Source: Opitutales bacterium
GTDB lineage: Bacteria; Verrucomicrobiota; Verrucomicrobiia; Opitutales; JABSRG01
Assembly: GCA_028280845.1 (NCBI GenBank)
Contig: JANQKZ010000041.1
Location: 8,549 to 72,548, forward strand
Length of the DNA: 64,000 nt
Reading direction: 5' to 3'
Of the stretch, positions 37,158-55,630 are shown in pieces. Both the position numbers and the translations under genes were made by a program. A model generated the notes under the pieces. That model saw only the letters and a program-made list of their open reading frames with translations. It made no database searches and was not told the origin of the DNA. Within the stretch, counting starts at the first letter, position 1. Every line of letters starts with the position of its first letter.

Positions 37158-37183
37158 ATTGCGAGGGCAAAGCCCGAAGCAAT
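37158..37183. repeat. imperfect hairpin between convergent genes (REP-like / possible bidirectional terminator)
   Basis: ATTGC-GA-GGGC-AAA-GCCC-GAA-GCAAT. Outer 5-bp and inner 4-bp stems with a small internal loop. No flanking T-run. I recall the ATTGCGAG...CGAAGCAAT shape from dispersed palindromic elements in other genomes. Confidence 0.35.
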
Positions 37184-37202
37184 CCCCCCAACCAGCGACC
37201 TC

Positions 37203-37370
37203 CTTCCTTCAACTTTCAACCTGCAACCAATCCCCACCAACCATCAAAAACGAAATCACTGCTCAGCCAATTCATCCTCAAGCGCCTGAATCCGTTTCTC
37301 CTGCTCAATAATATATAAGGTCAGCTCCTCAATCTTCTGCAGCAGCACTGCCTGACTCTCCCCGAGCGTC
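37203..37370. repeat. left copy of the island-bracketing direct repeat
   Basis: CTTCCTTCAACTTTCAACCTGCAACCAATCCCCACCAACCATCAAAAACGAAATCACTGCTCAGCC... matches 55221..55390. About nine of ten positions match over the first ~110 bp by hand alignment, and the match is weaker afterwards. It covers the 3' flank plus the last ~38 codons of the 37256..38194 gene. Confidence 0.8.
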
Positions 37371-38194
37371 ACCCCTTCAGCTTCCACTTCTTCAGCCGAG
37401 GGCACATCCGGCAAATGCCCATTCACCTCGATAAACTCCTCCACCTCATGGAGCGGCTTCAGCTCATACCCCGCCTCAAATACAAAATCCGACCAGCCCG
37501 TCTCCACAATCACTTCCTCCGCTCGGATTACCCCCTTCACGTCGAGCTGATAATCCGGGGTCTGTGTATTGATGCCGACATACCCGGTAGAGTCCATGAT
37601 GCGCATTCGCTCCGTTCCAGACGAACCCGAACTTCCGGTTTTGAAGTAGAGGCCGGTTTGGCCGGTTATGGCAAAAAAGCCATTTGCTGTCGTTCCATTT
37701 CCCACAAACCCGTCCATATTATTTACAAATGAATTTCCCGAGCTATCCGTCCTCATGTGGAGTCCACTTCCCGATGTATTGTGAAGAAGAATATTCTGCC
37801 CCAACACATCCAGTTCCATAGTGGGGTTTGCGTGACCGACTGCCAGTTTACCACTCGCCTTCAAGACCAGAAGAGGATGGTTCAATCCAGGATTTGGTAG
37901 AATGCTAAAGTCAACAGCTCTGTCCATAGCTCGAATACTTAAAGACCCATTGGCCAAAGACGATGCCCCGCCTGGATTTGCTGAAATAATAAATTCGAAG
38001 TGATTATTTTGGTTCCCACTCGAAGTTCGCTCTAGGGAAAAAATATTATCATGGGTCCCTGTCTTTATATGCAGGAGATCCTCCGGACTCGTCGTCCCTA
38101 TCCCCACATTCCCACTACTCGGGAACGTATTCGCTCCATTCAGGGCTACCGTGACTGCCCCAATCCATAACACAAACAGAATCGTTTTTCTCAT
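37256..38194 (-). CDS. secreted fibre-like protein, family member Pa (conserved C-terminal module)
   Basis: 312 aa with a signal-like N-terminus. Three G-x-V-G-I-x-T-x-x-P-x-x-x-L-x-V motifs. C-terminal module IRAEEVIVETGWSDFVFEAGYELKPLHEVEEFIEVNGHLPDVPSAEEVEAEGVTLGESQAVLLQKIEELTLYIIEQEKRIQALEDELAEQ, shared with the 49187..54873 array. Confidence 0.8.
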   Translation of the reverse strand: MRKTILFVLWIGAVTVALNGANTFPSSGNVGIGTTSPEDLLHIKTGTHDNIFSLERTSSGNQNNHFEFIISANPGGASSLANGSLSIRAMDRAVDFSILPNPGLNHPLLVLKASGKLAVGHANPTMELDVLGQNILLHNTSGSGLHMRTDSSGNSFVNNMDGFVGNGTTANGFFAITGQTGLYFKTGSSGSSGTERMRIMDSTGYVGINTQTPDYQLDVKGVIRAEEVIVETGWSDFVFEAGYELKPLHEVEEFIEVNGHLPDVPSAEEVEAEGVTLGESQAVLLQKIEELTLYIIEQEKRIQALEDELAEQ

Positions 38195-38589
38195 GTTTAC
38201 GCTCCTCCTTCGTGAGCTCCAGGCTTGTTATTTTTTTATTTTCCAAAATGACCGAATTCACTTCGGACAGGAATATTCAGCATATAAAACGGGTAGCCAA
38301 TGAACAACCAAAATCACGACCCTAGATCTGTTTTTCCGGGGGCTCACAGCAACTGAGAAAGACCGCAGTCGACGAGGCCAGAAGGGCATCGAGAGCTGAA
38401 CCGGGACCATGCTTCGAGGCGGGCTTGGCCTTGCGGTACTAGCGGTGATTTCAACCAAAAGCCGAATCCATGCAAACCCATGCAAAAGCGGTGCTGTTGA
38501 CCAAGGCATGAACGCTTCATCGGCCTGCTTACAGACCTTAGCCGAGGACCGACCCAACAAGGGAGTTGGTCACTGAGAAGCGAAGTAAC

Positions 38590-38955
38590 CTACCTGTCTC
38601 CCAGCTTCGCCTCCAATTCCTGAATTCGCTTTTCTTGTGCAATTAAGTGTAAGGTTAGCTCTTCTATCTTTTGGAGAAGTATAGCTTGGGTTTCCCCGAC
38701 GGTCACACCATCCGCCTCCACTTCTTCGGCCGAAGGCACATCCGGCAAATGGCCATTCTCCTGAATAAAGGTTTCCTCCGCTTCCAAAGGCAACAGATCG
38801 TAATCACGATCAAAGACAAAATCGGACCACCCCGATTCAACCACAATTTCGTCGGCCCGGATAGATCCATCCACCGACAGTTTATAAGCGGGATCGGGGG
38901 CAGTCGTCCCAATGCCAACGACCCCATCATCGGTTAGGGGGGCAAAAGGGGTCAA
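38590..38955 (-). pseudogene. N-terminally truncated member of the fibre-like family (C-terminal module only)
   Basis: The 121-codon ORF begins at a TTG that lies inside the left inverted repeat of the transposase element. The product is essentially only GVVGIGTTAPDPAYKLSVDGSIRADEIVVESGWSDFVFDRDYDLLPLE...LLQKIEELTLHLIAQEKRIQELE. There is no signal peptide or body. Confidence 0.7.
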
Positions 38956-39964
38956 ACGTAGATTTTAAATACCTCCTTACGGGTTCCACTTTTTTATGAG
39001 GTTGGTCACTCGGGAAGGGTGGCCCATATTCAGCCGATCAGCAATCCAGGGATTATTTGCTGTGGTTTTTGACCTCAGGATAAAAGCGATTCTGGATTTC
39101 CATTCCGCCCCTTTGGGTGAGTGAGCAAGGTCATTTTCGGTTTTTCTCAGAAGCTTCAATTCATCCACCACCAAGTTCTCCCATTTTGACTCATTCAACA
39201 CTTTTAGATCTACTCCTTCCCATTCCACATCTGGATTTTCCCTGGTTATTTTCTTTTGAAGAGCCTGCTTTTCATCGTTCGAGCCAATAAACCAACCCTG
39301 GACATATTGGCTGGCCTGCTTTTTCAACTCAGAAGACTCCATCTTCTCATAACCCTTCAAATGGTTCGCATACCGGCGCACTCCGGCCCGAGTGTCAGGA
39401 AACCCCAGCTGTGACAGGAAACCTCCACGGCATAATCCTCTTCGGATTGATTCCTTAAAAAACTTCGGATAACTCGATAGAGGATACTCTCTCAATTCGT
39501 TAACAGAGACCAATCCGGCCCGAACGGGGTTGAGGTGGATGTAATCCACTAATCCGGACAAACTCCCGTCCTCTCCAACAATAAGCGACTTATACCTCCC
39601 CTGGAAGACATGCCCCCGCTCATTCCTCAATCGGTTAAAACGGGTGGCAAAGGTACTTTGCAACCACCGCATTCCCGCCACCAGATTCGGTTCTGGAGTC
39701 TCCACCGCCAGATGGTAGTGATTACTCATAATGACGTAGGCATGCATCTGCCATCCACACCGCTCTACCGCCTCAAACAAGGCCTTCTCGAAGGATTGTC
39801 CCGTCTGTTCCTTCAGAAACAATTCCTTGCGGTAATTCCCACGACTGATCACGTGGTACACCGCCCCAGGATATTCGATGCGCTGTTTCCTTGGCACATC
39901 AAACACTCCAGGTCAGTCATATTTGAAGGTCAATATTTAAATTATACGTTTGACCCCTTATTCC
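38941..39964. mobile_element. about 1-kb element: Y1 (IS200/RAYT-like) transposase gene flanked by terminal inverted repeats
   Basis: Left AAGGGGTCAAACGTAGATTTTAAATA (38946..38971) matches the reverse complement of 39934..39959 (AAGGGGTCAAACGTATAATTTAAATA), 24 of 26 by hand. The match is loosely extendable to 38941 and 39964. Both repeats abut or overlap the ends of truncated flanking genes. Confidence 0.7.
38977..39906 (-). CDS. IS200-like/REP-associated tyrosine (Y1, HUH) transposase with a DnaA-C-like HTH tail
   Basis: 309 aa. YHVISRGN, HUH motif SNHYHLAV, GHVFQGRYKS, and the tyrosine-helix context VDYIHLNPVRAGLV. The C-terminal ~50 aa (KSRIAFILRSKTTANNPWIADRLNMGHPSRVTNLIKKW) resemble DnaA domain IV. 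Confidence 0.8.
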   Translation of the reverse strand: MFDVPRKQRIEYPGAVYHVISRGNYRKELFLKEQTGQSFEKALFEAVERCGWQMHAYVIMSNHYHLAVETPEPNLVAGMRWLQSTFATRFNRLRNERGHVFQGRYKSLIVGEDGSLSGLVDYIHLNPVRAGLVSVNELREYPLSSYPKFFKESIRRGLCRGGFLSQLGFPDTRAGVRRYANHLKGYEKMESSELKKQASQYVQGWFIGSNDEKQALQKKITRENPDVEWEGVDLKVLNESKWENLVVDELKLLRKTENDLAHSPKGAEWKSRIAFILRSKTTANNPWIADRLNMGHPSRVTNLIKKWNP

Positions 39965-40374
39965 TCTCTAAATAATCCCATAAATTGATTGGATCATTCC
40001 CCACGAATTGATAGAGGTTTATTCCGCCAGCTTCTCCCAATGGATCCCGGTTGAGGAACCGTCCAAATTCTGGAGCGTAGAAACGATACCCGAAGTAATG
40101 CAGCCCGGACTCGCGGTCCACCATCTTCGTGCTGAAGCGGATGGGGTCATGGGCGGCCAAGGTGCTACTTTCCGATTCCCGGATCAGCTCCCCGTAGGGA
40201 CCGTATTAATAAACAGCCTCGACGGTGAAGACGCCCAGGCTCTCCTTGAGCAGGCTGGTCACATTGCCATTTCCATCGTAGGTCGGATAGTACCGCCCCT
40301 GCCCGGCAATTTGCCGCCAACACCGCCTGCGGTCTGGTAGCCTCCATTCAGGTCCAGGCCCCAGCCGAATTTAC
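39942..40374 (-). pseudogene. decayed orphan Rhs core-end fragment (no toxin tip)
   Basis: DNA is homologous to 42598..43019 of the main rhs gene. It carries an in-frame TAA where the main gene has GAA (VY*YGPYGEL vs VYEYGPYGEL) and a 13-bp deletion (GGCAATTTGCCGCC vs GGCAATTTCCATCCAGAGCATGCCGCC). The reading frame ends 8 codons after WDYL, inside the transposase-element repeat. Confidence 0.85.
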
Positions 40375-40455
40375 CCTGTCAATTATCAAGATATGATCCT
40401 TCAATCGCCCCTGTGAGTAATGTTAATCATTCTACGTTTGCACCTTTTCAAATAT

Positions 40456-40995
40456 TCAGATCAATTTCAAATACTGGAGCCGACCGTCCTCAAAAATACC
40501 TTTGTAACCCATAGTCTCCACATCTCTCATCTCGGAAGTCCGTGCAAAATAGTCTTGGATGATTGTTCTTTTTCTTCGTTCAGTAGTAAAAACGATGTAG
40601 GGCTCAATTGCATTTTGAAAGTCGCAACCCATCCTAAGACAACAATCTTCCGCTATCGAAAGACTAACCAAAACATCTCTCCAATCTAAAATGTCACGGT
40701 CAACACAAAGCGCCCATAAATTATCATTGAGAAAGCGAGTGTTGTTACTTTCAACAGCATATACTGCCATTCTCAATGAAAAGATAGCCAAATTGTAGGC
40801 GTCACCACTTGTAAGTTTACCGAAAACATCAATAACCTCAGTAAGATTTAAATTAAATCCGTTTGGAAATAATTCAGAAAATCTCAACTCTCCATCGATC
40901 GGAAATTTCACTTCACCGCCAAGAGGATAATCAAAATCTGGGGGGCAGTTTTCCAGAAATGCATAAACTTTTTGTTTAACAAACTCTGATTTCAT
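40456..40995 (-). CDS. hypothetical cytoplasmic protein, candidate (orphan) immunity protein
   Basis: 179-aa ORF in a visibly AT-rich stretch between the rhs-proximal small gene and the orphan Rhs fragment. No signal peptide and no family recognised. Confidence 0.4.
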   Translation of the reverse strand: MKSEFVKQKVYAFLENCPPDFDYPLGGEVKFPIDGELRFSELFPNGFNLNLTEVIDVFGKLTSGDAYNLAIFSLRMAVYAVESNNTRFLNDNLWALCVDRDILDWRDVLVSLSIAEDCCLRMGCDFQNAIEPYIVFTTERRKRTIIQDYFARTSEMRDVETMGYKGIFEDGRLQYLKLI

Positions 40996-41160
40996 ATCAA
41001 CTCACGGCGCAATCAAAACTCCTCCACGAGAAATCACTCTCTGTTTCCCTCTAAGGTATTGTCCCATTTCTGTACCAACGCGCCCATTAACTGGCGATTA
41101 GAACAGTCAAGGAACCGTTGCCTAAAGGTTTCGGCCCTGATGGATGACCTCTAAAATTGC

Positions 41161-41529
41161 CTACAATACGAAGACAAGCGGCAATTTAAGTTTATGCGCT
41201 CTCTCGCAAAGAGCACTCAGAGAATTTATAAAATCAACCACATCTGAGTCGAGATCCAGAGAAGCAAATTCTGATCTAATTACTTTCCCTGCCTTATTCA
41301 GGTTTCTGCCTACTTCCTCTTGTTCATATTCGTCAACAAGAGCTCCGCATATCTGGTTAAAACGCCTGAAGACTCCAGCATCCCAAATTCGGTAAAACAA
41401 ATCATCGTCGTCTAATTTAATACGCTCAACATCTAGTCCTTGTATAACATCGTCATCTCGTATCCTCTTTAGGGCGCCCTCACTTAGAGGGAGTACGATA
41501 CTTCTTCTATATAGCTCTGACGTAAACAT
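41161..41529 (-). CDS. small acidic protein, candidate cognate immunity protein of the Rhs toxin
   Basis: An ATG at 41529 (MFTSELYRR...) lies 7 nt after the rhs stop codon (41537..39). 122 aa, acidic, no signal peptide, AT-rich. The track ORF start at 41586 would overlap rhs by 50 nt. Confidence 0.55.
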   Translation of the reverse strand: MFTSELYRRSIVLPLSEGALKRIRDDDVIQGLDVERIKLDDDDLFYRIWDAGVFRRFNQICGALVDEYEQEEVGRNLNKAGKVIRSEFASLDLDSDVVDFINSLSALCERAHKLKLPLVFVL

Positions 41530-41536
41530 AAATCTG

Positions 41537-44500
41537 TTAATATATAATAAAGTGCGACAACTCTTGTCGACTATTAGGTATGACATTACCCATCATATCC
41601 AGATATTTACCATTCTTTCCTCCGATTTTATTCGGTTGAAAGATTCTGAAGTACCCACCATCCAAGTCCTCGACGATCTGTCGACCTGTTTTAGCATTCT
41701 CATATATTCGCTTATTTGACTTTGTTACCCAAGTGGTTATTTCACCACCATCTCCAAGATGACGTGTAATTGCTTTGGTAATATCAGCCTTCATCCAATT
41801 ATGCCCCCACTTCAGTCTTCTGGCTAGCCCAGGGGCGATCTCGCCTGCCGCCTTAGCGCCTCCTTTTTTAGCTGTAAAAATCACGCCAAGCTTGGCTGTC
41901 CCTATTGCTCCAAGTTTTCCTGCCCCCTTTACTACAGCTGTCGCGGCAGCTTTCACCAAAAAGACATCGGTGACCGCAATAGCGGAATTTACTATTCCCC
42001 AGCCCCATCTTCCATTTTGGAAATCGTTAACGGCGGCACGACCCGAGCCCCAGACAGGAATTAAGCCTTCCCAGAAACCTGGCGCACCTACACCTTTTTC
42101 AATAGCTGCAAAATTGTCCTCTACCAAGTCATCCCAATAGCCGGACCTAAAGTCTTTGGCTACCTGGCTATACATGTCTGCCTCGTGGGACATTTCATCG
42201 ATAAGGTAATCATCGGCTACATTTCCACCCCACGCAAATTGATCACTCCTAAAGCCATCCACGGTGTAAGAGTTCTGCCAGGGAGCAAAATTATTTACGT
42301 AAAGGTGTCCAGTACTAGGGGTGATCCATTCAATTACCTCAAATGTATCTAAAGTTTGTATCCCGGAAGTACTGCCCTTATTACTGCTCGAGGTTCCCAC
42401 ATTGGCGTAAACCACGAACGGATCCAAGGTTTGGATGGGCCCCTCACTTTGCTCAAAAATCTGATAATGTTTTCCGTACTCGCCCCGCATTAAGTCCTCA
42501 ACTGTGATCTCACTTTGAGGTAGGGTACTGTCACCAGAATAGTAATTTTGACTGGATAACCCAGGGCCCATATCCAGCATCAAGGTTTGAAGGGTAAGGC
42601 CCAGGTAATCCCAGTTATTTATCGGATCATTCCCGGCAAACCGGTAAAGATTCGAGCCACCGGCTTCTCCCAGTGGATCCCGGTTAAGGAACCGTCCAAA
42701 TTCAGGAGCGTAGAAGCGATACCCGAAGTAATGTAGCCCAGACTCGCGGTCCACCATCTTGGTGCTGAAGCGAATCGGATCATGGGCGGCCAAGGTGCTA
42801 CTTTCCGATTCCCGGATCAGCTCCCCGTAGGGACCGTATTCATAAACGGCCTCGACGGTGAAGACCCCTAGGCTCTCCTTCAACAGGCTGGTCACATTGC
42901 CATTGCCATCGTAGGTCGGATAGTACCGTCCCTGCCCGGCAATTTCCATCCAGAGCATGCCGCCGACACCGCCCGCGGTCTGGTAGCCCCCGTTCAGGTC
43001 CAGGCCCCAGCCGAATTTACGGACGATGGAGGAGCCATTGGTCTCCATGACGAGGTTCCACCCTTCGTAGACGTATTTGCGGGTCTTCGCGGGAGCTCCG
43101 GTGAAAGTGTTGGAGGCGTTCCAAACCTGCTTTCCTACCCGACGGCCCATGTAGTCGTAGGTGAACTGGATGGACACTCCATTGTTCACCGTAGCACTCC
43201 ACATCCGATAGATACGGTTCTCTCCATCATAAATGAAATTCCAGAGACTATCTTGAGTAGGATTCCCATTATCATCGAAATTCACCAACTCCGTATCATT
43301 TCTGCTAGCGGCATTTCGGTTTTCTGAAATAAGGAGATCAGCCCCACCTGCCCCTGCCCCAGCGAGCCCTGCATATAAGGTAATCGCATTATTGGCAGCA
43401 CTGGTGCTGCTGGTCTCATATCTATGGTAGAAATGTCCGCCATTCATTGTGGCGGCATCCTTTGTGCTTCCTGCCGTTTCCCCTACAAATACCTGGATTG
43501 GGCGGGATGGTGCACTGGTGGACTCGTCGTAGTTTACAAAGCCTTCTGTATGGATACTCGTATCGGGAAAACGGGTCGTAATTTCATTTGCCTGATTTAA
43601 TGCAGGACCGATGGTGGTATGGCTGGTATCCCTTGAATAGGATATTCTATTTCCTGCGTTGTCATACCCATATGTAAATGTCCTTCCCGGGACCGTGACT
43701 TTGCCCCCTGTATTTAAATCGCCGCTGTAGTAGGTAATGAACTGTTCCAATTCATTGCGATCCGTGTAACTGAAGGTTTTCAGCAGGCCGTCCTCCGGGT
43801 AATTGGCGTAGGACTGGCCCGTCATGAGCTCCTTGGACCGACGGCCCAGGAGATCATGTACATACTCTGATTTATGAAACGGACTCGCGCTGGCCGTCCC
43901 CAGGTGGGCGGAAATGGATTTGAGGAGGTTCCGGTAGTTGTCGTAGTTGTGGACCCGGTCTATATCATGGGGGCCGTCGATTTTTCGCACCAGCCCGTTG
44001 GGCCGCATGTTGTAGGTGAAGGTATAGCCATCGATGACCGCCCGGTCCAGCGTCCCATTATCCGCTCGGTAGTAAAAATAATTACTCAGCTCCGTATCCC
44101 CGCCCTTCTGTACATAATATCCCTGGTATCGGTAAGAGGAATCGTATTGGTGACGGATGGTTACTGAGTCTCCCGTATAATAGCTTCCCAGGGTTTCCGT
44201 GATGAGCTGCCCGTGCGTCAGGTCATAGTAGTGCGTTCGGGATCCGATTGCATCCACGACGCTGGATATGTTTCCCAGGCGGTTGTAATTGTAGTTGATA
44301 TTGGTCGTCGTCGGGTCGGCAGCCCCTCCCGATTGGAAATACTGTATTTCGTTCATCGACCCATCCTTCGAATAATAGGAATAGGTCGTATAATTCCCCT
44401 CCGGGTGGGTCCGTCGGATGAGCTGGTTCTGCGCATTGTAGAGGTAGGCGGTTGTTTTGCTTTTTCCGTCGACCTTGCTGTTAAGTAACCCCGAAGGCAC

Positions 44501-48091: not shown

Positions 48092-48107
48092 TTTAAATTC
48101 CTCCAGT

Positions 48108-48626: not shown

Positions 48627-48627
48627 T

Positions 48628-49161
48628 TTAATTTCCGGGGCTGGTAATTTCAAAAGTGATGGGGGTGCCTGAACCTGGGGTAGAGGTCGTTCCTGCAGTG
48701 GGATCAAAATAGATATCAAATTCGTCCTTATTGGATATCCCGTCACTATCCAGATCTGAGGCCGCATCAGCCGACGAGGAGGGATTCAGCCCGTAGTGGG
48801 TTTCCCAGGCATCAAACATGCCGTCGCCATCAGAATCCTGGGTGGCTTCCGTATCAGAAAACCCATCCATATCCGCATCCACTGCGGCCCAGAATAAACT
48901 TCCCGTCTTTGCGTGAAAGCCAGGCTTGAGGACCACCCGATTCCGCGCCCAGAAGATGGAGTCTCCTCCGCTTTCAATGGAAACCCGAGTTTGGGTTGGA
49001 TTGTTTGTATCCTCTACGGTTTGAAGGATATCGTCAGAGACGTAATCCTCCACTTCACCATTGGACACCGTGGTATCCTGGATGATGGTGGTAGCTCCGA
49101 TGCAGAGCAGGGCACCCATGGCTATCCCAAGGGCTAGATGCAGTTTACCTGGTTGTTTCAT
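48628..49161 (-). CDS. secreted protein with thrombospondin-type-3-like calcium-binding repeats
   Basis: 177 aa with a signal/anchor segment (LALGIAMGALLCIGA). Asp-rich repeats DADMDGFSDTE, DSDGDGMFDAWE.HYGLNP, DLDSDGISNKDE. A VVLKPGFHAKTGSLFWA motif that I recall from surface proteins linked to RHS loci (from memory, unverified). Confidence 0.55.
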   Translation of the reverse strand: MKQPGKLHLALGIAMGALLCIGATTIIQDTTVSNGEVEDYVSDDILQTVEDTNNPTQTRVSIESGGDSIFWARNRVVLKPGFHAKTGSLFWAAVDADMDGFSDTEATQDSDGDGMFDAWETHYGLNPSSSADAASDLDSDGISNKDEFDIYFDPTAGTTSTPGSGTPITFEITSPGN

Positions 49162-49186
49162 GGTTATTTAAGATTCGGAAAGGGTG

Positions 49187-50149
49187 CTATGGAGTGAGCG
49201 TGTTCAACCGGGCCTCCAGCTCGGCATTGTGGTGTTTCAGTTCGGAAATTTCCTCCTGCTGTTGAATGAGGTAGAGCGTCAGTTCTTCCACCTTCTGCAG
49301 CAGCATCGCCTGGGTTTCCCCAACCGATGCTCCTTTGGCTTGAACCTCCTCAGCGTCCTTCACCCCTGGGAGTCGCTTTTCCTTTTCGATGTGCTCCGCC
49401 ACCTCCTCCAGGGGCATGAGCTCATAGTCCTCCTCAAAGACAAAGTCCGCCCAGTTGGATTCGACTATTATCTCTTTGGCGCGGGCTGTGCCATTGATGT
49501 CTAAATCATAAGAGGGGGTGTAGGTCCCTAAGCCTACCTTGCCGTCACCCTTAATGACCAAAGAATAATCGTGGGCTCCTTCATAATCCGTTATAAAACT
49601 AAATGCCCTATGGGCCGAATTGCCCTGTTCGGCCCGAAAGACAAAATTACCATTATTAGCTTCATCCTGAATCGAACGGAAAATTACATTGTTGTCATCC
49701 ACACCAATCTCCAGGGATTGATTGGAATCTCCCAAACGGGTGATATAAAAATTTTTTGTCGCTGTGTAGGAGTTGAAGTAAGCACTCCCCTCAACATGGA
49801 GTTTACCATTTGGAGAGTAGCTCCCTATCCCGACATCTCCATTCGGCATCAGAATCAGGCCGTTCACCCAGATCCCAGCAGAATCATCCCTACGGATAAA
49901 TTTCAATTGCCCATTGTTGTGGTGCTCAGCAATCCAATAGTCGGAAGGGTCAATAGAATCCGAGCTATTGAACCATTCAAGACGAGTATAAGAGGAATCA
50001 TGAATCCGAATATCTCCTCGGACATCTAAGGTTTCCCCAGGGCTGGTAGTCCCAATGCCAACATTTCCCGATGATGGGAAGGTGTTTTGCCCCCAGGCGA
50101 GAGACAAAGAAGAAAGGGCGCCTAGAAATAAATAGCATGTTTTGATCAT
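49187..50149 (-). CDS. secreted fibre-like protein, family member P6
   Basis: 320 aa with a signal peptide. N-terminal NTFPSSGNVGIGTTSP is identical to Pa. Conserved C-terminal module (ARAKEIIVESNWADFVFEEDYELMPLEEVAEHIEKEKRLPGVKDAEEVQAKGASVGETQAMLLQKVEELTLY) plus a coiled-coil tail. Confidence 0.8.
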   Translation of the reverse strand: MIKTCYLFLGALSSLSLAWGQNTFPSSGNVGIGTTSPGETLDVRGDIRIHDSSYTRLEWFNSSDSIDPSDYWIAEHHNNGQLKFIRRDDSAGIWVNGLILMPNGDVGIGSYSPNGKLHVEGSAYFNSYTATKNFYITRLGDSNQSLEIGVDDNNVIFRSIQDEANNGNFVFRAEQGNSAHRAFSFITDYEGAHDYSLVIKGDGKVGLGTYTPSYDLDINGTARAKEIIVESNWADFVFEEDYELMPLEEVAEHIEKEKRLPGVKDAEEVQAKGASVGETQAMLLQKVEELTLYLIQQQEEISELKHHNAELEARLNTLTP

Positions 50150-50997
50150 GGGTTGCTCCTCAAACTTCGATTCTCTTCACGGAGTGATTTTACCTCTTCG
50201 TTCAATTCAATGACATACAGTGTCAGCTCCTCCACCTTTTGCAGCAGCATCGCCTGGGTCTCCCCGACCGATGCTCCTTCGGCTTGGATCTCCTCAGCCG
50301 ACCTCACGCCAGGGAGGCGTTTTTCCCTCTCGATGTGCTCCGCCACCTCCTCCAGGGGCATCAGCTCATAATCCTCCTCAAAGACAAAGTCCGCCCAGTT
50401 GGACTCCACAATGATTTCCTTGGCCCGAGCAGTGCCATTTACATCCAACTTATGTATGGGAGAATTCGTCCCTATCCCAATTAAACCATCTCGTTGAACT
50501 GTCATTATGGTTAAGCTGTCATAACCCCCAGTAGATTTAGCGGCTTGGACGCGTATTTCCTCTTCAACTTCATGGTACTCAAAGCGCATCCCCTTCTCAT
50601 TCCATTCAGAGACAAGGGCCAGGTTGGGCCTTGTATTTTTTAACACGAGGTCAACCGAGGGGTTTGGAATTCCGATTCCTAACTTCTCCTTCAGATAAAG
50701 ATTTCCAGAGGAAAATAATTGGAAATATACAGTGCCCGAATGATAAAATCGCATCGACCCCTGGTAACTATCCAAACCCCAATCAACATACGGTGAGGGC
50801 GAAGAGAAATGAATTTCACCACCTTCGTAGACTGTGTTTTGGGATCTTAGCACTATCCTGCCATCCGTGGTATAAAAGGAATTGCTTACATCCAGTGCCC
50901 CAGTGACATCTACGTCCACAAAGGTATTGCCCCAGGACAAGCAGACGCCAAGCGGGCTGCTTAAGAATAACAGAACAAGGTATACTTTATTGGTCAT
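50146..50997 (-). CDS. secreted fibre-like protein, family member P5
   Basis: 283 aa with a signal peptide and a divergent body. The C-terminal module is identical to P4 over ~70 aa. ATGA overlap with P6. Confidence 0.8.
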   Translation of the reverse strand: MTNKVYLVLLFLSSPLGVCLSWGNTFVDVDVTGALDVSNSFYTTDGRIVLRSQNTVYEGGEIHFSSPSPYVDWGLDSYQGSMRFYHSGTVYFQLFSSGNLYLKEKLGIGIPNPSVDLVLKNTRPNLALVSEWNEKGMRFEYHEVEEEIRVQAAKSTGGYDSLTIMTVQRDGLIGIGTNSPIHKLDVNGTARAKEIIVESNWADFVFEEDYELMPLEEVAEHIEREKRLPGVRSAEEIQAEGASVGETQAMLLQKVEELTLYVIELNEEVKSLREENRSLRSNP

Positions 50998-51895
50998 GAT
51001 TCTCTAAACGACTGAGCCGTTTCTCCAGCTGTTGAATTTGTCGGTCCTTTTCGATTAAATGGAGTGTCAACTCCTCCACCTTTTGCAGCAGCATCGCCTG
51101 GGTCTCCCCTACCGATGCTCCTTCGGCTTGGATCTCCTCAGCAGACCTCACGCCAGGCAGGCGTTTCTCCCTTTCGATGTGCTCCGCCACCTCCTCCAAG
51201 GGCATGAGCTCATAGTCCTCCTCAAAGACAAAGTCCGCCCAGTTGGACTCCACGATGATTTCCTTGGCCCGGGCGGTACCATCCACGTCTAGCTCGTAGG
51301 CAGGGGCATGGGTCCCGACTCCTACCTTCCCGTCCTTCTTAACGACAAATCGTGGGTAGTGCCAGGTGGGATCTGTCAATACACTGAAATCCGCAGCATG
51401 CCCAGCCGCACGAAGCGTTAATGACCGATTATTTAATGTCTGAACCCCTGAGGGGCTGGAAGTAATCAAAAGCTCGAAGCGGTTGGCTTGCGAGCCCTCC
51501 AAGCGCTCGATGGAAAACAAGTCATTGTAATTAGGAGAGGCTATATGTAGGCGATCCTGGGGAACCGTAATTCCAACCCCCAAATACCCCAGCCGGCGTA
51601 AAACTATCCTGGTTTGATCCGACCCCGGGGTTTCCGACTCAAAAAACAAATCACCACTTTGGTTTTCATTCATCCAAATCCACCAATCATTACCACTTGC
51701 GTTATTCCTAAAACGCAGTCCAGGAGGATTCACGCCTGTGCCCTGCCCAATTAAATTAAAAGCATCATATATATTGTTTGGAATATCCAGTTCCCCATAA
51801 AGGCTATCTGACGCTGCATACGAGGATTTGAAAAACCCGATTAGAGAAAACAAAAGAATAACATGCTTAATTTTCACGACTAGCCTCCAACTCAT
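50987..51895 (-). CDS. secreted fibre-like protein, family member P4
   Basis: 302 aa with a signal peptide. The body is homologous to the Pa central block (FSIERLEGSQANRFELLITSSP..SLTLRAAGHAADFSVL). Conserved C-terminal module. Overlaps P5 by 11 nt. Confidence 0.8.
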   Translation of the reverse strand: MSWRLVVKIKHVILLFSLIGFFKSSYAASDSLYGELDIPNNIYDAFNLIGQGTGVNPPGLRFRNNASGNDWWIWMNENQSGDLFFESETPGSDQTRIVLRRLGYLGVGITVPQDRLHIASPNYNDLFSIERLEGSQANRFELLITSSPSGVQTLNNRSLTLRAAGHAADFSVLTDPTWHYPRFVVKKDGKVGVGTHAPAYELDVDGTARAKEIIVESNWADFVFEEDYELMPLEEVAEHIEREKRLPGVRSAEEIQAEGASVGETQAMLLQKVEELTLHLIEKDRQIQQLEKRLSRLENHDQ

Positions 51896-52943
51896 TGATT
51901 CGTCCCACTAGGGCCTCGTTCTTTTTATTGAGCTCAACAACGTAAAGGGTCAGCTCTTCCACCTTCTGCAAAAGCATCGCCTGGGTCTCTCCTACCGAAG
52001 CGCCTTCGGCCTGAATCTCCGTGGCAGACCTTACCCCGGGCAATCGTTTTTCCGTTAGGATGAAATCCTCAACCTCCTCCAGGGGCATGAGCTCATAGTT
52101 CTCCTCGAAGACAAAGTCCGCCCAGTTGGACTCTACAATGATTTCTTTCGCGCGAACAACTCCGTCGACTTCCAACTTGTTCTGCGGCGTATCCAAGCCG
52201 ATCCCCACATTGCCGTTGGCTGCTATGGTCATGCGGCCGATGTCACCGGTGATGAAGTGAATAGGAGCTGACCCGCCATTGCCGAGAACCATTCGATCGG
52301 CAGGACGCCCAGCCCAGCTCCTGAGTAGAACCGTTTTACTTAGAGGATAACCGGAGAGGTTGCCGGGCGTATTTTCGGTATAGAGATTAAGATTAAACCC
52401 GGTATCTAAGGTAGCTAAAGATAAGGCGGAGGCAACAGATGGCCCGGAAGAGTTATTGGTTACCCTTATAGTAGTCTCACCATCCTGGTCCCTCCTTAAA
52501 TCAAGTTCCTGGCCTGGAGAGGTTGTTCCTATTCCCACATTTCCAGTTCCTGCATCAATCGCCATCCGGGTAACAGAATCAGGCATGAAATAGATGTCCG
52601 CTTCAGAGCCGAAACTCCGAAGAATCAGGTCACTGCTGTTATTCGAAGTGTTATATGCGGTGTAAATCGTAGCCCATGCTGCTCCGCCATGGCGAAAATC
52701 TATGATGCTTCGTGAGTCGTTGCCAGTGCCCGAATCCAAATTGATCCGGAGTCCCGTTGTACTGTAATTAGTAAAATAAAAGGAACCATAGGTGGTATGG
52801 AGGTCAAAGTAGCCACCAGTCACCGTCGAGGTGTTAATCCCGATTTCATTGTTCGAGTGCACGACATTACCGGTGGTGGTCCACTGCCCCCAAGTGAGGC
52901 ACCAGGGAATAACGAAGCCAATAATCCAGGGTAGCGGTTTCAT
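51867..52943 (-). CDS. secreted fibre-like protein, family member P3
   Basis: 358 aa with a signal peptide. The body is homologous to P1 (RPADRMVLGNGGSAPIHFITGD). Conserved C-terminal module. Confidence 0.8.
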   Translation of the reverse strand: MKPLPWIIGFVIPWCLTWGQWTTTGNVVHSNNEIGINTSTVTGGYFDLHTTYGSFYFTNYSTTGLRINLDSGTGNDSRSIIDFRHGGAAWATIYTAYNTSNNSSDLILRSFGSEADIYFMPDSVTRMAIDAGTGNVGIGTTSPGQELDLRRDQDGETTIRVTNNSSGPSVASALSLATLDTGFNLNLYTENTPGNLSGYPLSKTVLLRSWAGRPADRMVLGNGGSAPIHFITGDIGRMTIAANGNVGIGLDTPQNKLEVDGVVRAKEIIVESNWADFVFEENYELMPLEEVEDFILTEKRLPGVRSATEIQAEGASVGETQAMLLQKVEELTLYVVELNKKNEALVGRINELEASREN

Positions 52944-52944
52944 C

Positions 52945-53847
52945 CTATTGTTCCTTCAGGGCGGTTAGCTCATGTTTCAGCGACTCGATCTCCTTTTGCT
53001 GCTGGAGGGTATACAAAGTCAGTTCCTCTATTTTCTGTAAGAGGAGCGCCTGCGTTTCCCCGAGGGAGGCCCCCGTATTTTGGACCTCCTCGGTCGAAGG
53101 CACGCCCGGCAACCGCCGATTGGTTTCTATATAAGCTCCGACTTCACCCAACGGCATGAGCTCGTAGTTCTCCTCAAAGACGAAATCCGCCCAACCCGTT
53201 TCCACAATGACCTCCTCGGCCCGGATCTTTCCGCCGACGTTTAAGAATTCGTCGAATGAACTCGTTCCGATTCCCACCTTACCGTAAAACTTCGTTTCTC
53301 CATTTGGGTAGATCTGAGACCTAATAAAAGGCAGCGAATTGGAATTTTGGTCACTGGTTGCTAACTTGATTCCGTTAACATCTTGAAGGATAAAGGAGGA
53401 AGAGATCCAACCCGCTATATCTGCATCAATGAGCGGCCAGGTATTATCATTCCGGCGATAGGTATTCCAAGACCACGTCGTCCCATACGAACCCTGGTCT
53501 CCAATGAAAGACCGACTGGGAAGGGCCAATTTATCATTACCTCCCCAGAAATCAGATATTACAGGAGCAGCCCCCAAAATGACTGAACCATCAGTAAATT
53601 TCGCAATACCCTCGATCACGACCCCTCCCTCGAAATCTCCATCAAAATTAACATAGAGCTGGTCACTCCCGTAATGCACTAATGCACGTTGAAGCGGTTT
53701 TGACCCTACACTACGGCCATCATTTGTTCCTAAATATAGGTCAGCGCCCTCAACCTCCAACGAGTCTGTTATGATATGAACTCCAAACAGTCCTGGGCCA
53801 TTTATGGAAAACAAAACTCCTGCTAAAACGACTATGCCAACCCTCAT
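52945..53847 (-). CDS. secreted fibre-like protein, family member P2
   Basis: 300 aa with a hydrophobic N-terminus and a unique body (LYLGTNDGRSVGSKPLQRALVHYGSDQLYVNFDGDFEGGV). Conserved C-terminal module (IRAEEVIVETGWADFVFEENYELMPL...LLQKIEELTLY). Confidence 0.8.
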   Translation of the reverse strand: MRVGIVVLAGVLFSINGPGLFGVHIITDSLEVEGADLYLGTNDGRSVGSKPLQRALVHYGSDQLYVNFDGDFEGGVVIEGIAKFTDGSVILGAAPVISDFWGGNDKLALPSRSFIGDQGSYGTTWSWNTYRRNDNTWPLIDADIAGWISSSFILQDVNGIKLATSDQNSNSLPFIRSQIYPNGETKFYGKVGIGTSSFDEFLNVGGKIRAEEVIVETGWADFVFEENYELMPLGEVGAYIETNRRLPGVPSTEEVQNTGASLGETQALLLQKIEELTLYTLQQQKEIESLKHELTALKEQ

Positions 53848-53856
53848 GCGAATTCC

Positions 53857-54873
53857 CTATTCTTTCAGTTTATCCAGTTCTCCCCTTAATTGGGTTATTT
53901 GCGATTGCTGTTCCTTTATAACCGAATCCTGCTCAATGAGGTAGAGGGTCAGTTCCTCAATTTTCTGAAGTAGAAGCCTCTGAGTCTCCCCGAGAGACAC
54001 CCCCTCCTCGAGCACCTCCGCCTCGCTGGGAATTCCCGGCAGGTGACCCTCCTGAGCAATGTGGGCTTTGACCTCCTGCAGCGACGGGAGCTCATAGGCG
54101 TCATCAAAGACAAAGTCCGCCCAGCCGGTTTCGACAATGATCTCTTCCGCCCGGACCCGACCGTTGACCTCGAGCTTATTGGCCGGGTTTGATGTGCCGA
54201 TCCCTACGTTGCCGTCACCGGCAATGGTCACTTGATGGCTGTCACCGGTGATGAAATGAATGGGAGCGTTTGATCCCGTGCCAATTACCATTCTGTCTGC
54301 CGGAGAGCCCGAATGGGTTCGGAGAAAAACAGAGTTTGCTTTGGGGAAGGCTGCAAAATCTCCGGAAGCGCCTGAACCCCATGATATGATATCAAAGCCG
54401 GCGGTACTGTTGGAAAGTAACATTAAAGAGGCTTGGGCAGACGCACCGCTACTGTCGTTCCGTATAGCCGCACGTACCATTCCATCTCTATTTTCTCGAA
54501 GCTCGAAAGAATAGGCCGGAGTCATCGTGCCAATGGCAATTTTCCCCTTAAAGTAGTTGACCTGATTTATGCCCGTCATGAAGACATGCCCGGCGTATAG
54601 GCGGGAATTCCCTCCGCCCTTGTAGGTGCCATCCGATACAAAACTCCATGTCCCCGGGGCTCCTCCCGCGGCGCCGTCATGGTGCCAGATGTGGTCTATG
54701 TTGTCGGAACCAGTGTTATTGGAGATGAGCGCGTAGTTGTTAAATAAAAGATCCTCGGTGATCGAAAATTGCCCGTATGCGGATCCCACACATACCAGCC
54801 AAACCAGCGCAAGACCTGCCTTTAAACAGTGTTGCCCCGTTAGCCGTGAAAAATGACTCCTATCCATTTTCAT
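53857..54873 (-). CDS. secreted fibre-like protein, family member P1 (first gene of the array)
   Basis: 338 aa with a signal-like segment (LALVWLVCVGSAYGQ). The body is homologous to P3. Conserved C-terminal module plus the longest coiled-coil tail. Confidence 0.8.
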   Translation of the reverse strand: MKMDRSHFSRLTGQHCLKAGLALVWLVCVGSAYGQFSITEDLLFNNYALISNNTGSDNIDHIWHHDGAAGGAPGTWSFVSDGTYKGGGNSRLYAGHVFMTGINQVNYFKGKIAIGTMTPAYSFELRENRDGMVRAAIRNDSSGASAQASLMLLSNSTAGFDIISWGSGASGDFAAFPKANSVFLRTHSGSPADRMVIGTGSNAPIHFITGDSHQVTIAGDGNVGIGTSNPANKLEVNGRVRAEEIIVETGWADFVFDDAYELPSLQEVKAHIAQEGHLPGIPSEAEVLEEGVSLGETQRLLLQKIEELTLYLIEQDSVIKEQQSQITQLRGELDKLKE

Positions 54874-54929
54874 AAATCTACTGTTGAAACTAAAAATGCA
54901 GTATCAGGCCCAGAGTTAAAGAAAAAATA

Positions 54930-54945
54930 ATTCACAATCGTGAAT
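54930..54945. promoter_or_regulatory. candidate operator palindrome upstream of the paralog array
   Basis: ATTCAC-AATC-GTGAAT, 57-72 nt upstream of the P1 start in an AT-rich region. Three further TTCAC direct copies lie at 54996, 55003 and 55022, around an A10 run. Confidence 0.3.
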
Positions 54946-55220
54946 GAAATTAGATGAACTAATGAAAATCCTCTTATCCATGAAAGACTTAGAGGTTCAC
55001 GTTTCACAAAAAAAAAATCATTTCACTAATAGGCCTCATAAGTTTCATACCTAGGCGGGCCGAATACCGAAGGAGTTGGAAATGAACCTATTCCGCTTGA
55101 AATCGAAGGATCCCATACTCGCAACCGTCTGTTTTCCTTTTAGGCTCTTCCCTATGTCTTCTGGCAGTTAGGAGAGGCAATAAAATGTTACCAAAGGACG
55201 ACCACTTCCCCTTCAACCTG

Positions 55221-55390
55221 CTTCCTTCAACTTTCAACCTTCAACCAATCCCCACCAACCATCGAAAAAGAAATCACCGCTCAGCCCATTGCTCCTCCAG
55301 CGCCTGAATCCGCTTCTCCTGCTCAATGATGTGCTGGATCAGCCCCTCGATCTTCCGCAGCAACACCGCCTGGCTTTCACCAGGGGACAT
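55221..55390. repeat. right copy of the island-bracketing direct repeat
   Basis: CTTCCTTCAACTTTCAACCTTCAACCAATCCCCACCAACCATCGAAAAAGAAATCACCGCTCAGCC... is homologous to 37203..37370 in the same orientation. Confidence 0.8.
55274..55390 (-). pseudogene. 38-codon remnant of a fibre-like family gene (extreme C-terminus only)
   Basis: The minus-strand translation MSPGESQAVLLRKIEGLIQHIIEQEKRIQALEEQWAER* matches the end of Pa (GESQAVLLQKIEELTLYIIEQEKRIQALEDELAEQ*). The same 3' flank follows. Confidence 0.7.
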
Positions 55391-55630
55391 CCTGGTATCT
55401 GGCCCCATGGCTCGGTGGCTTCCCGGATCCCTTGCATCGTAGCAGAGCCTGAGGGATTGACGGGGAGTTAGTCCTTTACCGCGTTTGGATATGCAATATC
55501 AGGGCATGGTTTTCATCATTTTTTACCGGATTGGGTGGATTTCGCTTTGCCAAATGGGGGTTTTTTCCGCACGGTCTAGGGTGAATTAACCACTGATAGC
55601 ACCTCTTTCCTGCCCCTCTACTAGCACACC

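What the first reader, a model, noticed from the sequence alone, without database searches (positions are those of the whole stretch)
37203..55390. About 18-kb island bracketed by direct repeats made of a fibre-gene 3' end plus its downstream flank
Seen:
- 37203..37370 and 55221..55390 are co-oriented homologs. Roughly nine of ten positions match over the first ~110 bp, including the non-coding flank CTTCCTTCAACTTTCAACCT.CAACCAATCCCCACCAACCATC.
- The left copy ends an intact gene (Pa). The right copy is a 38-codon stump with nothing upstream of it.
- Everything between the repeats is accessory-looking: the paralog family, rhs, immunity genes, a transposase, pseudogenes and AT-rich patches. The outside flanks are ordinary genes (ATP-grasp trio and VWA-like gene on the left, GAF and korAB on the right).

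Inference: the repeats mark the borders of an insertion or duplication-deletion history. They could mediate excision or loss of the whole island by homologous recombination.
Basis: partly seen in the sequence, partly recalled or inferred. Interest (0 to 1): 0.6.

Follow-up and report, generated by a model that had tools for sequence, protein, structure and literature searches.

The report
Fibre-gene relic bracketing an Rhs toxin cluster
The two repeats are real, but the right-hand one is a decayed leftover of one more copy of a surface-fibre gene family that surrounds an Rhs toxin gene cluster, so this is ordinary gene-family turnover and shows none of the tested signs of a purpose-built insertion or excision site.

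Summary
Observation confirmed. 37198-37374 and 55216-55392 are co-oriented repeats: 177 nt, 83% identical, 18,018 bp apart. Each is the last ~38 codons of a minus-strand fibre gene plus 58 nt of 3' flank. The left copy ends intact Pa; the right is a 5'-truncated stump.

Interpretation partly supported. The bracketed DNA is compositionally distinct (GC3 0.52 versus 0.63, p=2e-6). No integrase, tRNA or known RNA family was found at either border. The repeats are old paralogues, with about half of synonymous sites differing. Their longest perfect match is 22 nt, so excision by homologous recombination should be very rare.

The interior is a recurrent cluster: fibre-gene array, 177-aa "coathanger" protein, TPR-like protein, Rhs toxin. 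I found it in five other loci (six contigs). Opitutaceae TAV1 also has co-oriented fibre genes on both sides of its Rhs gene. Another array has truncated stumps at its upstream end.

One oddity remains. The flank plus the last ~18 codons are 87-93% identical, while the adjacent 62 nt are 69% identical. This suggests a later gene-conversion patch or a constrained element.

The empty-site test was impossible, because no close relative exists in any collection searched. Low interest.

The parts
37198..37255 (-). Left copy of the repeat, non-coding part: 58-nt 3' flank of Pa. It is G/T-rich on the coding strand, with GGTTG and GTTGAA repeats.
   Evidence: 54 of 58 positions match 55216-55273. The 43-nt core occurs twice in the window against 0 expected. 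As RNA it is no more structured than shuffled sequence.
37256..37374 (-). Left copy of the repeat, coding part: the last ~38 codons and stop codon of Pa.
37256..38194 (-). Pa: intact 312-aa secreted fibre-like protein. It has a signal peptide, a GxVGIGT beta-helix region and the family's conserved ~105-aa C-terminal domain.
   Evidence: ORF. The family profile matches the Bdellovibrio fibre Bd2133 at E=1.3e-16, and Foldseek gives the same top hits. More than 4,176 homologues exist, the best non-self at 42% identity.
38590..38955 (-). Pfrag: a 5'-truncated family member holding only the C-terminal domain, of the Pa type. It abuts the transposase-like unit.
   Evidence: Its C-terminal domain is 63% identical to Pa's. 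Its 3' flank is unrelated to the repeat flank.
38934..39971 (-). REP-associated tyrosine transposase-like gene (38977-39906) flanked by 38-nt imperfect inverted repeats.
   Evidence: Pfam Y1_Tnp at 49.1 bits against a cut-off of 23. NCBIfam REP_Tyr_transpos at 75.3 bits against a cut-off of 80. Inverted repeat I1 and its motif copies.
39973..40387 (-). Orphan rhs core-end fragment. It carries a frameshift and an in-frame stop, and it ends at the core/tip boundary where the transposase inverted repeat begins.
   Evidence: 87% identical to 42606-43020. Translation.
40456..41586 (-). Two small low-GC ORFs (40456-40995 and 41161-41586), inferred to be Rhs immunity genes.
   Evidence: GC3 of 0.34 and 0.36. 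No family hits. The immunity role is inferred from position only.
41537..48091 (-). rhs: a 2,184-aa RHS-repeat protein with an N-terminal signal or transmembrane segment.
   Evidence: Pfam RHS_repeat at E=1.5e-16. An orthologue N-terminus in L029 is 57% identical over 737 aa.
48108..49161 (-). Two cluster-specific genes: a 177-aa '3-coathanger'/thrombospondin-3-like protein (48628-49161) and a TPR-like protein. The TPR-like ORF is 48108-48767, with a likely true start near 48626.
   Evidence: NCBIfam GCX_COOH at 32.8 bits against a cut-off of 26. The 177-aa protein is 65% identical to the L029 copy. Matches in L029, L031 and L032.
49187..54873 (-). Tandem array of six fibre-family paralogues, P6 to P1.
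   Evidence: (D1).
55216..55273 (-). Right copy of the repeat, non-coding part. It lies 343 nt upstream of the P1 start codon.
55274..55392 (-). Right copy of the repeat, coding part: a 5'-truncated stump of a ninth, Pa-type family member. Residues that are invariant in the family are broken here.

Best explanation
The right-hand repeat is a pseudogene relic. It is the last ~38 codons and the 3' untranslated flank of a ninth, Pa-type member of a co-oriented family of secreted trimeric-fibre-like proteins. This family surrounds a recurrent gene cluster: fibre-gene array, 177-aa coathanger protein, TPR-like protein, then a Sec-signal Rhs toxin with its putative immunity and orphan pieces.

The family evolves by tandem duplication, deletion and concerted evolution of its conserved 3' end. 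Pa and the ancestor of the stump were old paralogues. The stump lost its 5' part by deletion. A stretch of about 120 nt, made of the last ~18 codons and the flank, was exchanged between the two copies more recently, most simply by ectopic gene conversion.

The repeats sit at the edges of the low-GC block because family members are the outermost genes of the cluster. They are not integration sites. With 83% identity and at most 22 nt of perfect match, they would support deletion of the 18 kb only very rarely.

Shown: the repeat, the truncation, the family relationship, the mosaic divergence, the compositional shift, the recurrence of the cluster, and flanking family members elsewhere. Inferred: the order of events, gene conversion, and the inefficiency of recombination.
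For: - The stump is Pa-type. It is 68% identical in amino acids to Pa residues 275-312 and is the only extra family remnant in the window. It is closest to Pa and then to Pfrag.
- The copies diverged long ago, mostly under protein constraint: pS 0.53, dS about 0.9, dN/dS 0.13.
- The stump shows decay. It reads LLRKIEGLIQH where all eight other copies have LLQK[IV]EELTL[YH].
- Divergence is mosaic. 37313-37374 is 69% identical, while the last codons plus the flank are 87-93% identical (Fisher p=0.003). In the outer zone Pa, Pfrag and the stump are about equally distant (0.63-0.73). In the next 10 codons Pa and the stump are 93% identical, against about 70% for either with Pfrag.
- Concerted evolution of 3' ends is visible. 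N-terminal domains pair with L029 genes (P1~g4, P4~g5, P5~g6, P6~g1, Pa~g7). C-terminal domains are most alike between neighbours within one genome: P3-P6 are 65-78% identical (D1).
- The cluster recurs in L029/L030, L028, L031, L032 and L037.
- TAV1 has one fibre gene upstream and three downstream of its Rhs gene, all co-oriented.
- L028 has two truncated stumps at the upstream end of its array.
- There is no integrase, tRNA or Rfam hit.
- The longest identical run is 22 nt.
Against: - A 58-nt non-coding flank that is about seven times better conserved than synonymous sites (4 of 58 against about 12 of 23; p=2e-5) could reflect function and not gene conversion.
- The repeats coincide with the compositional borders to within 1 kb, as an insertion model predicts.
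- The two outermost of nine family copies are each other's closest relatives. Simple tandem duplication does not predict this.
- No close relative is available to show the ancestral arrangement.
- The rest of the source genome could not be searched for further copies of the flank.
Confidence: 0.6

Rival explanations
1. The 18 kb is a discrete inserted island. The repeats are its borders, made either by Campbell-type integration of a circle carrying Pa's 3' end and flank into a resident homologous site, or by a site-specific event at the 43-nt core. The repeats can still mediate excision.
For: - Direct repeats sit exactly at the edges of a low-GC, low-GC3 block.
- A near-identical core of 22 and 20 nt lies next to more diverged sequence, which is reminiscent of an att core.
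- The cluster sits in different neighbourhoods in other genomes. In L038 it lies among integrase and transposase genes.
Against: - No integrase or recombinase lies in or next to the island. The only candidate is a Y1 REP-associated transposase-like gene, which has its own 38-nt inverted repeats.
- No tRNA lies at either border.
- The intact gene body is inside the bracket and the stump is upstream, which is the reverse of integration into a gene's 3' end.
- Repeats made by one event should diverge evenly. Instead identity runs from 69% to 93% along the repeat.
- About half of synonymous sites differ.
- 83% identity with a 22-nt maximum perfect run is a poor substrate for homologous recombination.
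- Fibre genes are low in GC relative to host flanks in other genomes too.
Confidence: 0.15
2. The flank, perhaps together with the last ~18 codons, is a functional cis element kept by selection in both places. It could be a protein-binding site, a Rho-loading or 3'-UTR element, or a recombination anchor used when fibre-gene cassettes are exchanged. On this model the repeat reflects constraint, not history.
For: - The flank is 93% identical while synonymous sites are 47% identical (p=2e-5).
- It is built of short GGTTG and GTTGAA repeats.
- It is strongly strand-biased and unstructured: C-rich and G-poor on the plus strand.
- Stumps also lie upstream of an array in L028.
Against: - The two copies sit in unlike contexts. 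One lies between convergent genes downstream of Pa. The other lies in a divergent promoter region upstream of P1 and GAF.
- There is no Rfam hit and no terminator or promoter consensus.
- The motif is absent from 697 kb of fetched related loci and from the metagenome and viral collections.
- Pfrag, the third Pa-type copy, has an unrelated flank.
Confidence: 0.15
3. The repeat is a chance similarity or an assembly artefact.
For: The source appears to be a draft assembly. Independent Logan contigs break inside the island at other repeats.
Against: Shuffles give 0 matches and blastn gives E=9e-20 for the flank alone. Both repeat copies, with their outside and inside flanks, are reproduced at 100% identity in separate Logan contigs.
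Confidence: 0.02

Closest known systems
Rhs loci with C-terminal displacement and orphan modules (Jackson et al. 2009, PMC2935791; Koskiniemi et al. 2014, PMC3967940)
   Same: - A large RHS-repeat gene followed by small low-GC ORFs, and a downstream orphan copy of the core end. The orphan is 87% identical to the main gene and ends at the core/tip boundary.
- Direct repeats are created by gene pieces left behind after recombination.
- TAV1 shows the same pattern with an intact orphan tip.
   Different: The repeat in question is not an rhs piece. It is the 3' end of a neighbouring fibre gene, and the relic lies upstream of the cluster, not downstream of the toxin gene. The Rhs protein has a Sec-type N-terminus, and no T6SS genes were seen in the locus.
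Integrative genomic islands bounded by direct repeats from the 3' end of a target gene (att-type borders)
   Same: Co-oriented repeats made of a gene's 3' end and its flank lie at the edges of a compositionally deviant accessory block, with a near-identical short core.
   Different: - There is no integrase and no tRNA.
- The orientation is reversed: the stump is upstream and the intact gene body is inside.
- The repeats are 17% diverged, and unevenly so.
- The empty site is untested.
Bdellovibrio mosaic adhesive trimer (MAT) fibres and S74-type tailspike fibres (Caulton et al. 2024, PMC10769870)
   Same: The beta-helix region is homologous. The family profile matches Bd2133 at E=1.3e-16, and also matches Bd1334, Bd3182 and Bd2439. 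Foldseek's top hits are the same. Both have a signal peptide and occur as a multi-member family with mosaic domains.
   Different: - The proteins here are about 300 aa, not about 1,000.
- The variable part is N-terminal and the conserved part is C-terminal.
- The conserved C-terminal domain lacks the S74 SDxxxK motif. It reads W[SA]DFVFE and gives no Pfam S74 hit.
- The genes are arranged in tandem arrays next to an Rhs gene.
Multigene families under birth-and-death plus concerted evolution, such as tandem adhesin or surface-protein arrays
   Same: - Tandem co-oriented paralogues.
- Truncated relics.
- A conserved module homogenised within a genome while variable modules stay orthologous between genomes.
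   Different: Nothing essential differs. This is the category into which I place the repeat.

Membership tests
Integrase-mediated genomic island with att-type direct repeats | Direct repeats at both borders | tested here: met
   177 nt, 83% identical, co-oriented.
Integrase-mediated genomic island with att-type direct repeats | A tyrosine or serine recombinase gene inside, near a border | tested here: not met
   Pfam and NCBIfam scans, together with the Logan annotations, show none. The only candidate is a Y1 REP-associated transposase-like gene.
Integrase-mediated genomic island with att-type direct repeats | The target is a tRNA or gene 3' end, with the intact gene outside the island and the displaced stump at the far, downstream border | tested here: not met
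   No tRNA lies at the borders; the only one is at 19215-19301. Pa's body lies inside the bracket and the stump is upstream of it.
Integrase-mediated genomic island with att-type direct repeats | An empty site with one repeat copy in related genomes | not testable with these tools
   The closest relatives are 53-60% identical in flanking proteins and share no synteny. The motif is absent from the collections.
Integrase-mediated genomic island with att-type direct repeats | Composition deviating from the backbone | tested here: met
   GC 0.494 against 0.534 and 0.554. GC3 0.52 against 0.63, p=2e-6. The same bias is seen for fibre genes in other hosts.
Rhs polymorphic toxin locus with C-terminal displacement | A large protein with RHS/YD repeats | tested here: met
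   Pfam RHS_repeat at E=1.5e-16, 60.8 bits against a cut-off of 22.
Rhs polymorphic toxin locus with C-terminal displacement | An orphan copy of the core end downstream of the main gene | tested here: met
   39973-40387 is 87% identical to 42606-43020. It is frameshifted and ends at ...DPINLWD.
Rhs polymorphic toxin locus with C-terminal displacement | A cognate immunity gene directly after the toxin tip | not tested
   A 141-aa ORF overlaps the rhs stop codon and has GC3 of 0.36. It has no family hit. The role is inferred from position only.
MAT / S74-type trimeric fibre proteins | A triple beta-helix fibre region homologous to solved MAT fibres | tested here: met
   The profile matches Bd2133 at E=1.3e-16 over Pa residues 20-224. 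Foldseek gives E=3e-8. The model's mean pLDDT is 72.9.
MAT / S74-type trimeric fibre proteins | A C-terminal S74 chaperone-protease with the SDxxxK motif (S74 subgroup) | tested here: not met
   No Pfam S74 hit. The sequences read W[SA]DFVFE at that position. The motif definition comes from PMC10769870.
MAT / S74-type trimeric fibre proteins | A conserved ~130-aa beta-rich domain directly after the signal peptide | not tested
   This feature is defined in PMC10769870. No comparison was made.
REP-associated tyrosine transposase (RAYT) | A match to the family model above its cut-off, with flanking REP-type inverted repeats | tested here: inconclusive
   NCBIfam gives 75.3 bits against a cut-off of 80. 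Pfam Y1_Tnp passes. 38-nt inverted repeats flank the gene. Only 3 motif copies lie in the window.
Multigene family with concerted evolution and relics | The conserved module is more alike within a genome than between orthologues, and truncated copies are present | tested here: met
   C-terminal against N-terminal identities; the stump and Pfrag; the L028 stumps.

The most novel reading that the evidence does not exclude
The ~120-nt block, made of the last ~18 codons and the 58-nt flank, is kept nearly identical on purpose. On this reading it is a recombination anchor that lets whole fibre-gene cassettes be moved or swapped around a fibre-array/Rhs cluster. This would be a 3'-end counterpart of Rhs tip displacement. 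The truncated stumps upstream of arrays, here and in L028, would be its footprints. The wider cluster (paralogous trimeric fibres, coathanger protein, TPR-like protein, Sec-signal Rhs) would then be an undescribed toxin system that recognises its targets through fibres, with a built-in way to vary its receptor-binding repertoire.
Probability: 0.1. Interest if true: 0.6.

Novelty: new member of a known kind. Interest (0 to 1): 0.27.

Why it matters
Taken alone, the repeat pair is a routine by-product of gene-family turnover and matters little. It should not be read as an att site or as proof of a mobile island.

Two by-products may be worth more. First, a fibre-gene array, a coathanger protein, a TPR-like protein and an Rhs toxin travel together in five other loci (six contigs): L029/L030, L028, L031, L032 and TAV1. 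TAV1 is a named Opitutaceae (Verrucomicrobia) genome. The low GC of L028 and the Bacteroidota names among Pa's homologues suggest that the cluster spans more than one phylum. I found no description of this association in the searchable literature. Second, the family shows clear concerted evolution of its C-terminal module while its N-terminal modules stay orthologous. This could inform how such bacteria diversify surface fibres that may target their toxins.

Tried and rejected
- **Synteny and empty-site test.**
  - A genome-contig scan with KorA gave 18 loci, the best 44-59% identical, from other phyla.
  - Homologues of the 574-aa left-flank gene were 55-60% identical. Their contigs share neither flank. 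The convergent neighbour in L021 is a PEP-CTERM protein, not a family member.
  - Pa's best non-self homologue is 42% identical. The best Rhs homologue is 30% identical.
  - No close relative exists in any collection I could search.
- **Dispersed-element test.** The 22-nt core is absent from metagenome contigs and viral contigs. The core and the 43-mer, allowing mismatches, are absent from 697 kb of fetched loci. The rest of the source genome could not be searched.
- **Structured RNA or terminator in the flank.** There is no Rfam hit and no terminator or promoter consensus. Folding z-scores run from -0.35 to +2.0. Rejected.
- **Further family relics** next to the stump, between Pa and Pfrag, or upstream of P1. 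tblastn and blastn found none.
- **tRNA-linked island.** The only tRNA is at 19.2 kb. Rejected.
- **Source organism.** The cluster look-up gave no names. The taxon remains inferred as probably Verrucomicrobiota, from the TAV1 Rhs hit and PEP-CTERM neighbours in relatives.
- **Literature on a fibre-array/Rhs link.** Nothing specific was found.
- **Campbell-type integration through the repeat.** I considered this and set it aside. It predicts even divergence along the repeat and needs far better homology than 83% with a 22-nt perfect run.

Full report
**1.

The repeat finder reports 37198-37374 and 55216-55392 as a two-copy direct repeat of 177 nt, 83% identical, with 18,018 bp start-to-start spacing (alignment). 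Over 37203-37370, 140 of 168 match.

The 43-nt flank motif occurs exactly twice in the window, with none in 100 shuffles. The 58-nt flank alone scores E=9e-20.

Everything relevant is on the minus strand. The left copy is the last ~38 codons, the stop codon and 58 nt of 3' flank of an intact 312-aa ORF, Pa, at 37256-38194. The right copy reads ...SPGESQAVLLRKIEGLIQHIIEQEKRIQALEEQWAER*. Nothing related precedes it. A tblastn search with all family members finds no other remnant in the window.

Two Logan contigs, assembled independently from SRR20820735, reproduce window 25399-40176 and 51224-64000 at 100% identity. Both outer junctions are therefore not assembly artefacts.

**2. What the repeated gene is**

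Pa belongs to a family of secreted proteins of about 300 aa. Each has a signal peptide, GxVGIGT-type repeats and a strongly conserved C-terminal domain of about 105 aa (...W[SA]DFVFE...HLPG.PSA.EV...GE.Q..LLQK[IV]EELTLY...).

The window holds nine copies, all co-oriented:
- Pa.
- Pfrag (38590-38955), which holds the C-terminal domain only.
- Six tandem genes, P6 to P1 (49187-54873).
- The stump.

A profile of the family matches the solved beta-helix fibres of Bdellovibrio: Bd2133 at E=1.3e-16, and also Bd1334, Bd3182 and Bd2439. Foldseek on an AlphaFold model (mean pLDDT 72.9) gives the same top hits. "Fibre gene" is therefore a fair label.

The family is not the S74 type described for those fibres. 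The SDxxxK motif (PMC10769870) is replaced by W[SA]DFVFE, and Pfam S74 does not hit. The family is very large, with more than 4,176 hits, many of the named ones from Bacteroidota. Pa's best non-self hit is only 42% identical.

**3. What lies between the repeats**

Read along the minus strand, the order is:
- the stump and its flank;
- 343 nt of AT-rich spacer;
- P1 to P6;
- a 177-aa protein with a "3-coathanger stack" domain and thrombospondin-3-like repeats;
- a TPR-like protein;
- a 2,184-aa RHS-repeat protein with a Sec-type N-terminus;
- two small ORFs with GC3 of 0.34-0.36, inferred to be immunity genes;
- a frameshifted orphan copy of the rhs core end, 87% identical to the main gene and ending at the core/tip boundary;
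- a REP-associated tyrosine-transposase-like gene with 38-nt inverted repeats;
- Pfrag;
- Pa and its flank.

The orphan piece is the classic footprint of Rhs C-terminal displacement (PMC2935791, found).

**4. The interior is a recurrent gene cluster**

L029/L030 carry seven tandem fibre genes. These are followed by a 177-aa protein 65% identical to the window's, then a TPR-like protein, then an Rhs N-terminus 57% identical over 737 aa.

L028 has nine to ten fibre genes followed by BACON and DUF6443 proteins; I take the DUF6443 protein to be Rhs-type from my own knowledge. L031 and L032 have one or two fibre genes followed by a coathanger homologue.

Opitutaceae bacterium TAV1 (L037) has one fibre gene upstream of its Rhs gene. 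Downstream, beyond an orphan rhs cassette, it has three more, all co-oriented. L028 has two 5'-truncated family stumps at the upstream end of its array. This is the same position as the stump here.

Co-oriented fibre-gene ends on both sides of the toxin gene, and relics at the upstream end of the array, are therefore part of how such loci look.

**5. How the family evolves**

N-terminal variable domains pair up between the window and L029: P1~g4 at 65%, P4~g5 at 57%, P5~g6 at 44%, P6~g1 at 58% and Pa~g7 at 36%. C-terminal domains are instead most alike between neighbours within one genome. P3 to P6 are 65-78% identical, and L029 g4/g5 and g6/g7 are each 70% identical (DNA level, D1). This is concerted evolution of the 3' module.

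In L029 the Pa-like gene is the last gene of the array, directly before the 177-aa gene. In the window that position is held by P6, and Pa lies 11 kb further on. The locus has therefore been rearranged.

**6. History of the two repeat copies**

Over the 35 shared codons there are 21 differences: about 12 synonymous and 9 non-synonymous. This gives pS 0.53, dS about 0.9 and dN/dS 0.13. The copies therefore diverged long ago, and mostly while both still encoded protein. They were not created by one recent insertion.

The stump has since decayed. It reads LLRKIEGLIQH where the eight other copies keep LLQK[IV]EELTL[YH].

Divergence along the repeat is uneven:

| Segment | Identity |
|---|---|
| Outer 62 nt (37313-37374) | 69% |
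| Last ~18 codons | about 87% |
| 58-nt non-coding flank | 93% |

These figures come, and the zones differ with Fisher p=0.003. The flank is far better conserved than synonymous sites (p=2e-5).

In the outer zone Pa, Pfrag and the stump are about equally distant (0.63-0.73). Pa is there closer to P5 (0.80) than to the stump. In the next ten codons Pa and the stump are 93% identical, against about 70% for either with Pfrag.

The simplest reading is that old paralogues later exchanged a patch of about 120 nt ending in the flank. This fits the gene conversion seen elsewhere in the family. The alternative is that the flank is under constraint.

I could not support the constraint alternative. There is no Rfam hit and no terminator or promoter consensus. 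The flank has no more RNA structure than shuffled sequence. The motif is absent from the metagenome and viral collections and from 697 kb of related loci. The third Pa-type copy, Pfrag, has an unrelated flank. The two copies also sit in unlike contexts: one between convergent genes, the other in a divergent intergenic region.

**7. Is it an island with borders?**

Compositionally, yes. GC is 0.494 inside against 0.534 and 0.554 outside. Tetranucleotide distance to the backbone rises from 0.15-0.20 to 0.22-0.33 between about 37 kb and about 56 kb. GC3 is 0.52 for 14 inside genes against 0.63 for 30 outside genes (p=2e-6). The step on the left is sharp, 0.75 to 0.53, and the step on the right is softer.

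Three things weaken the island reading:
- Fibre genes are also lower in GC than host flanks in TAV1 (0.51 against 0.60-0.66) and in L032 (0.52 against 0.58). The bias may belong to the gene class, or to repeated transfer of it, and not to one insertion here.
- No integrase, recombinase or tRNA lies at or near the borders.
- The geometry is opposite to integration into a gene's 3' end. The intact gene body is inside the bracket and the stump lies upstream.

Excision by homologous recombination is possible in principle. However, 83% identity and a longest perfect run of 22 nt make it very inefficient. This rests on my own knowledge of how RecA-dependent recombination depends on length and identity, and was not tested here.

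**8. What could not be done**

The decisive synteny test failed for lack of relatives. KorA homologues in species-representative genomes are at most 59% identical. Homologues of the 574-aa flank gene are 55-60% identical, with no shared neighbours. The source genome is represented only by its own NCBI contig and the Logan contigs. The rest of the genome could not be searched for more copies of the flank.

**9. Verdict**

There is no evidence for an insertion site or for repeat-mediated mobility, and several features argue against both.

The repeat is best filed as a pseudogene relic in a multigene family under birth-and-death and concerted evolution, around an Rhs polymorphic-toxin cluster. 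It is of low interest in itself.

Two side results are more interesting. The fibre-array, coathanger, TPR-like and Rhs genes recur together, and I found no description of this in the searchable literature. The ~120-nt block of high identity also remains unexplained.

Noticed in passing
window 41537-54873; L029 1-10111; L028 882-15809; L032 6781-10438; L031 3334-5346; L037 7180-24763: A recurrent cluster in five other loci (six contigs). Its order is a tandem array of fibre-like paralogues, a 177-aa coathanger/thrombospondin-3-like protein, a TPR-like protein, and a Sec-signal Rhs protein. No description was found in the searchable literature.
   Followed up: partly
window 49187-54873 compared with L029 1-6715: Concerted evolution in the fibre family. 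N-terminal domains are orthologous between the two genomes. C-terminal domains are homogenised between neighbours within each genome. The Pa-like gene is the last array gene in L029 but is displaced beyond rhs in the window.
   Followed up: yes
window 38934-39971 and 40431-40447; L037 17096-20529: A REP-associated tyrosine-transposase-like gene is flanked by 38-nt inverted repeats. A third copy of its motif lies on the other side of the orphan rhs fragment. The 12-mer AAGGGGTCAAAC also occurs in the 88-nt repeat that accompanies the orphan rhs cassette region in Opitutaceae TAV1.
   Followed up: partly
window 37157-37184: A nested hairpin, CATTGCGAGGGCAAAGCCCGAAGCAATC, lies between the convergent 574-aa gene and Pa, just outside the left repeat. 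It looks like a bidirectional terminator. It occurs once in the window.
   Followed up: no
L028 142-885: Two 5'-truncated fibre-family stumps lie directly upstream of a nine- to ten-gene array in an unrelated low-GC genome (GCA_004196275.1). The second begins at almost the same point in the conserved domain as the window's stump.
   Followed up: partly
window 48108-48767: The 219-aa ORF overlaps the 177-aa gene by 140 nt. Comparison with L029 suggests that the real start is the internal Met near 48626, giving a protein of about 173 aa with a signal peptide.
   Followed up: partly
window 59360-63118: A 1,252-aa coiled-coil protein with only sub-threshold coiled-coil Pfam hits. The region has very high AT skew (up to 0.32) and is a tetranucleotide outlier comparable to the island.
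   Followed up: no
L038/L039 1-26732: A related Rhs cluster (30% identical Rhs protein, with a MAM-domain gene and a TPR-like gene upstream) sits among phage-integrase, Transposase_mut, rve_3 and DNA-methylase genes. In that genome the cluster lies in a mobile-element context.
   Followed up: no
L037 and L032: Fibre genes are lower in GC than their host flanks in other genomes too: TAV1 0.51 against 0.60-0.66, and L032 0.52 against 0.58. Low GC therefore seems to be a trait of the gene class.
   Followed up: partly
window 320-619 and 4005-4304: A 300-nt direct repeat at 68% identity joins two plus-strand genes (139-1008 and 3278-4690). They are probably paralogues.
   Followed up: no
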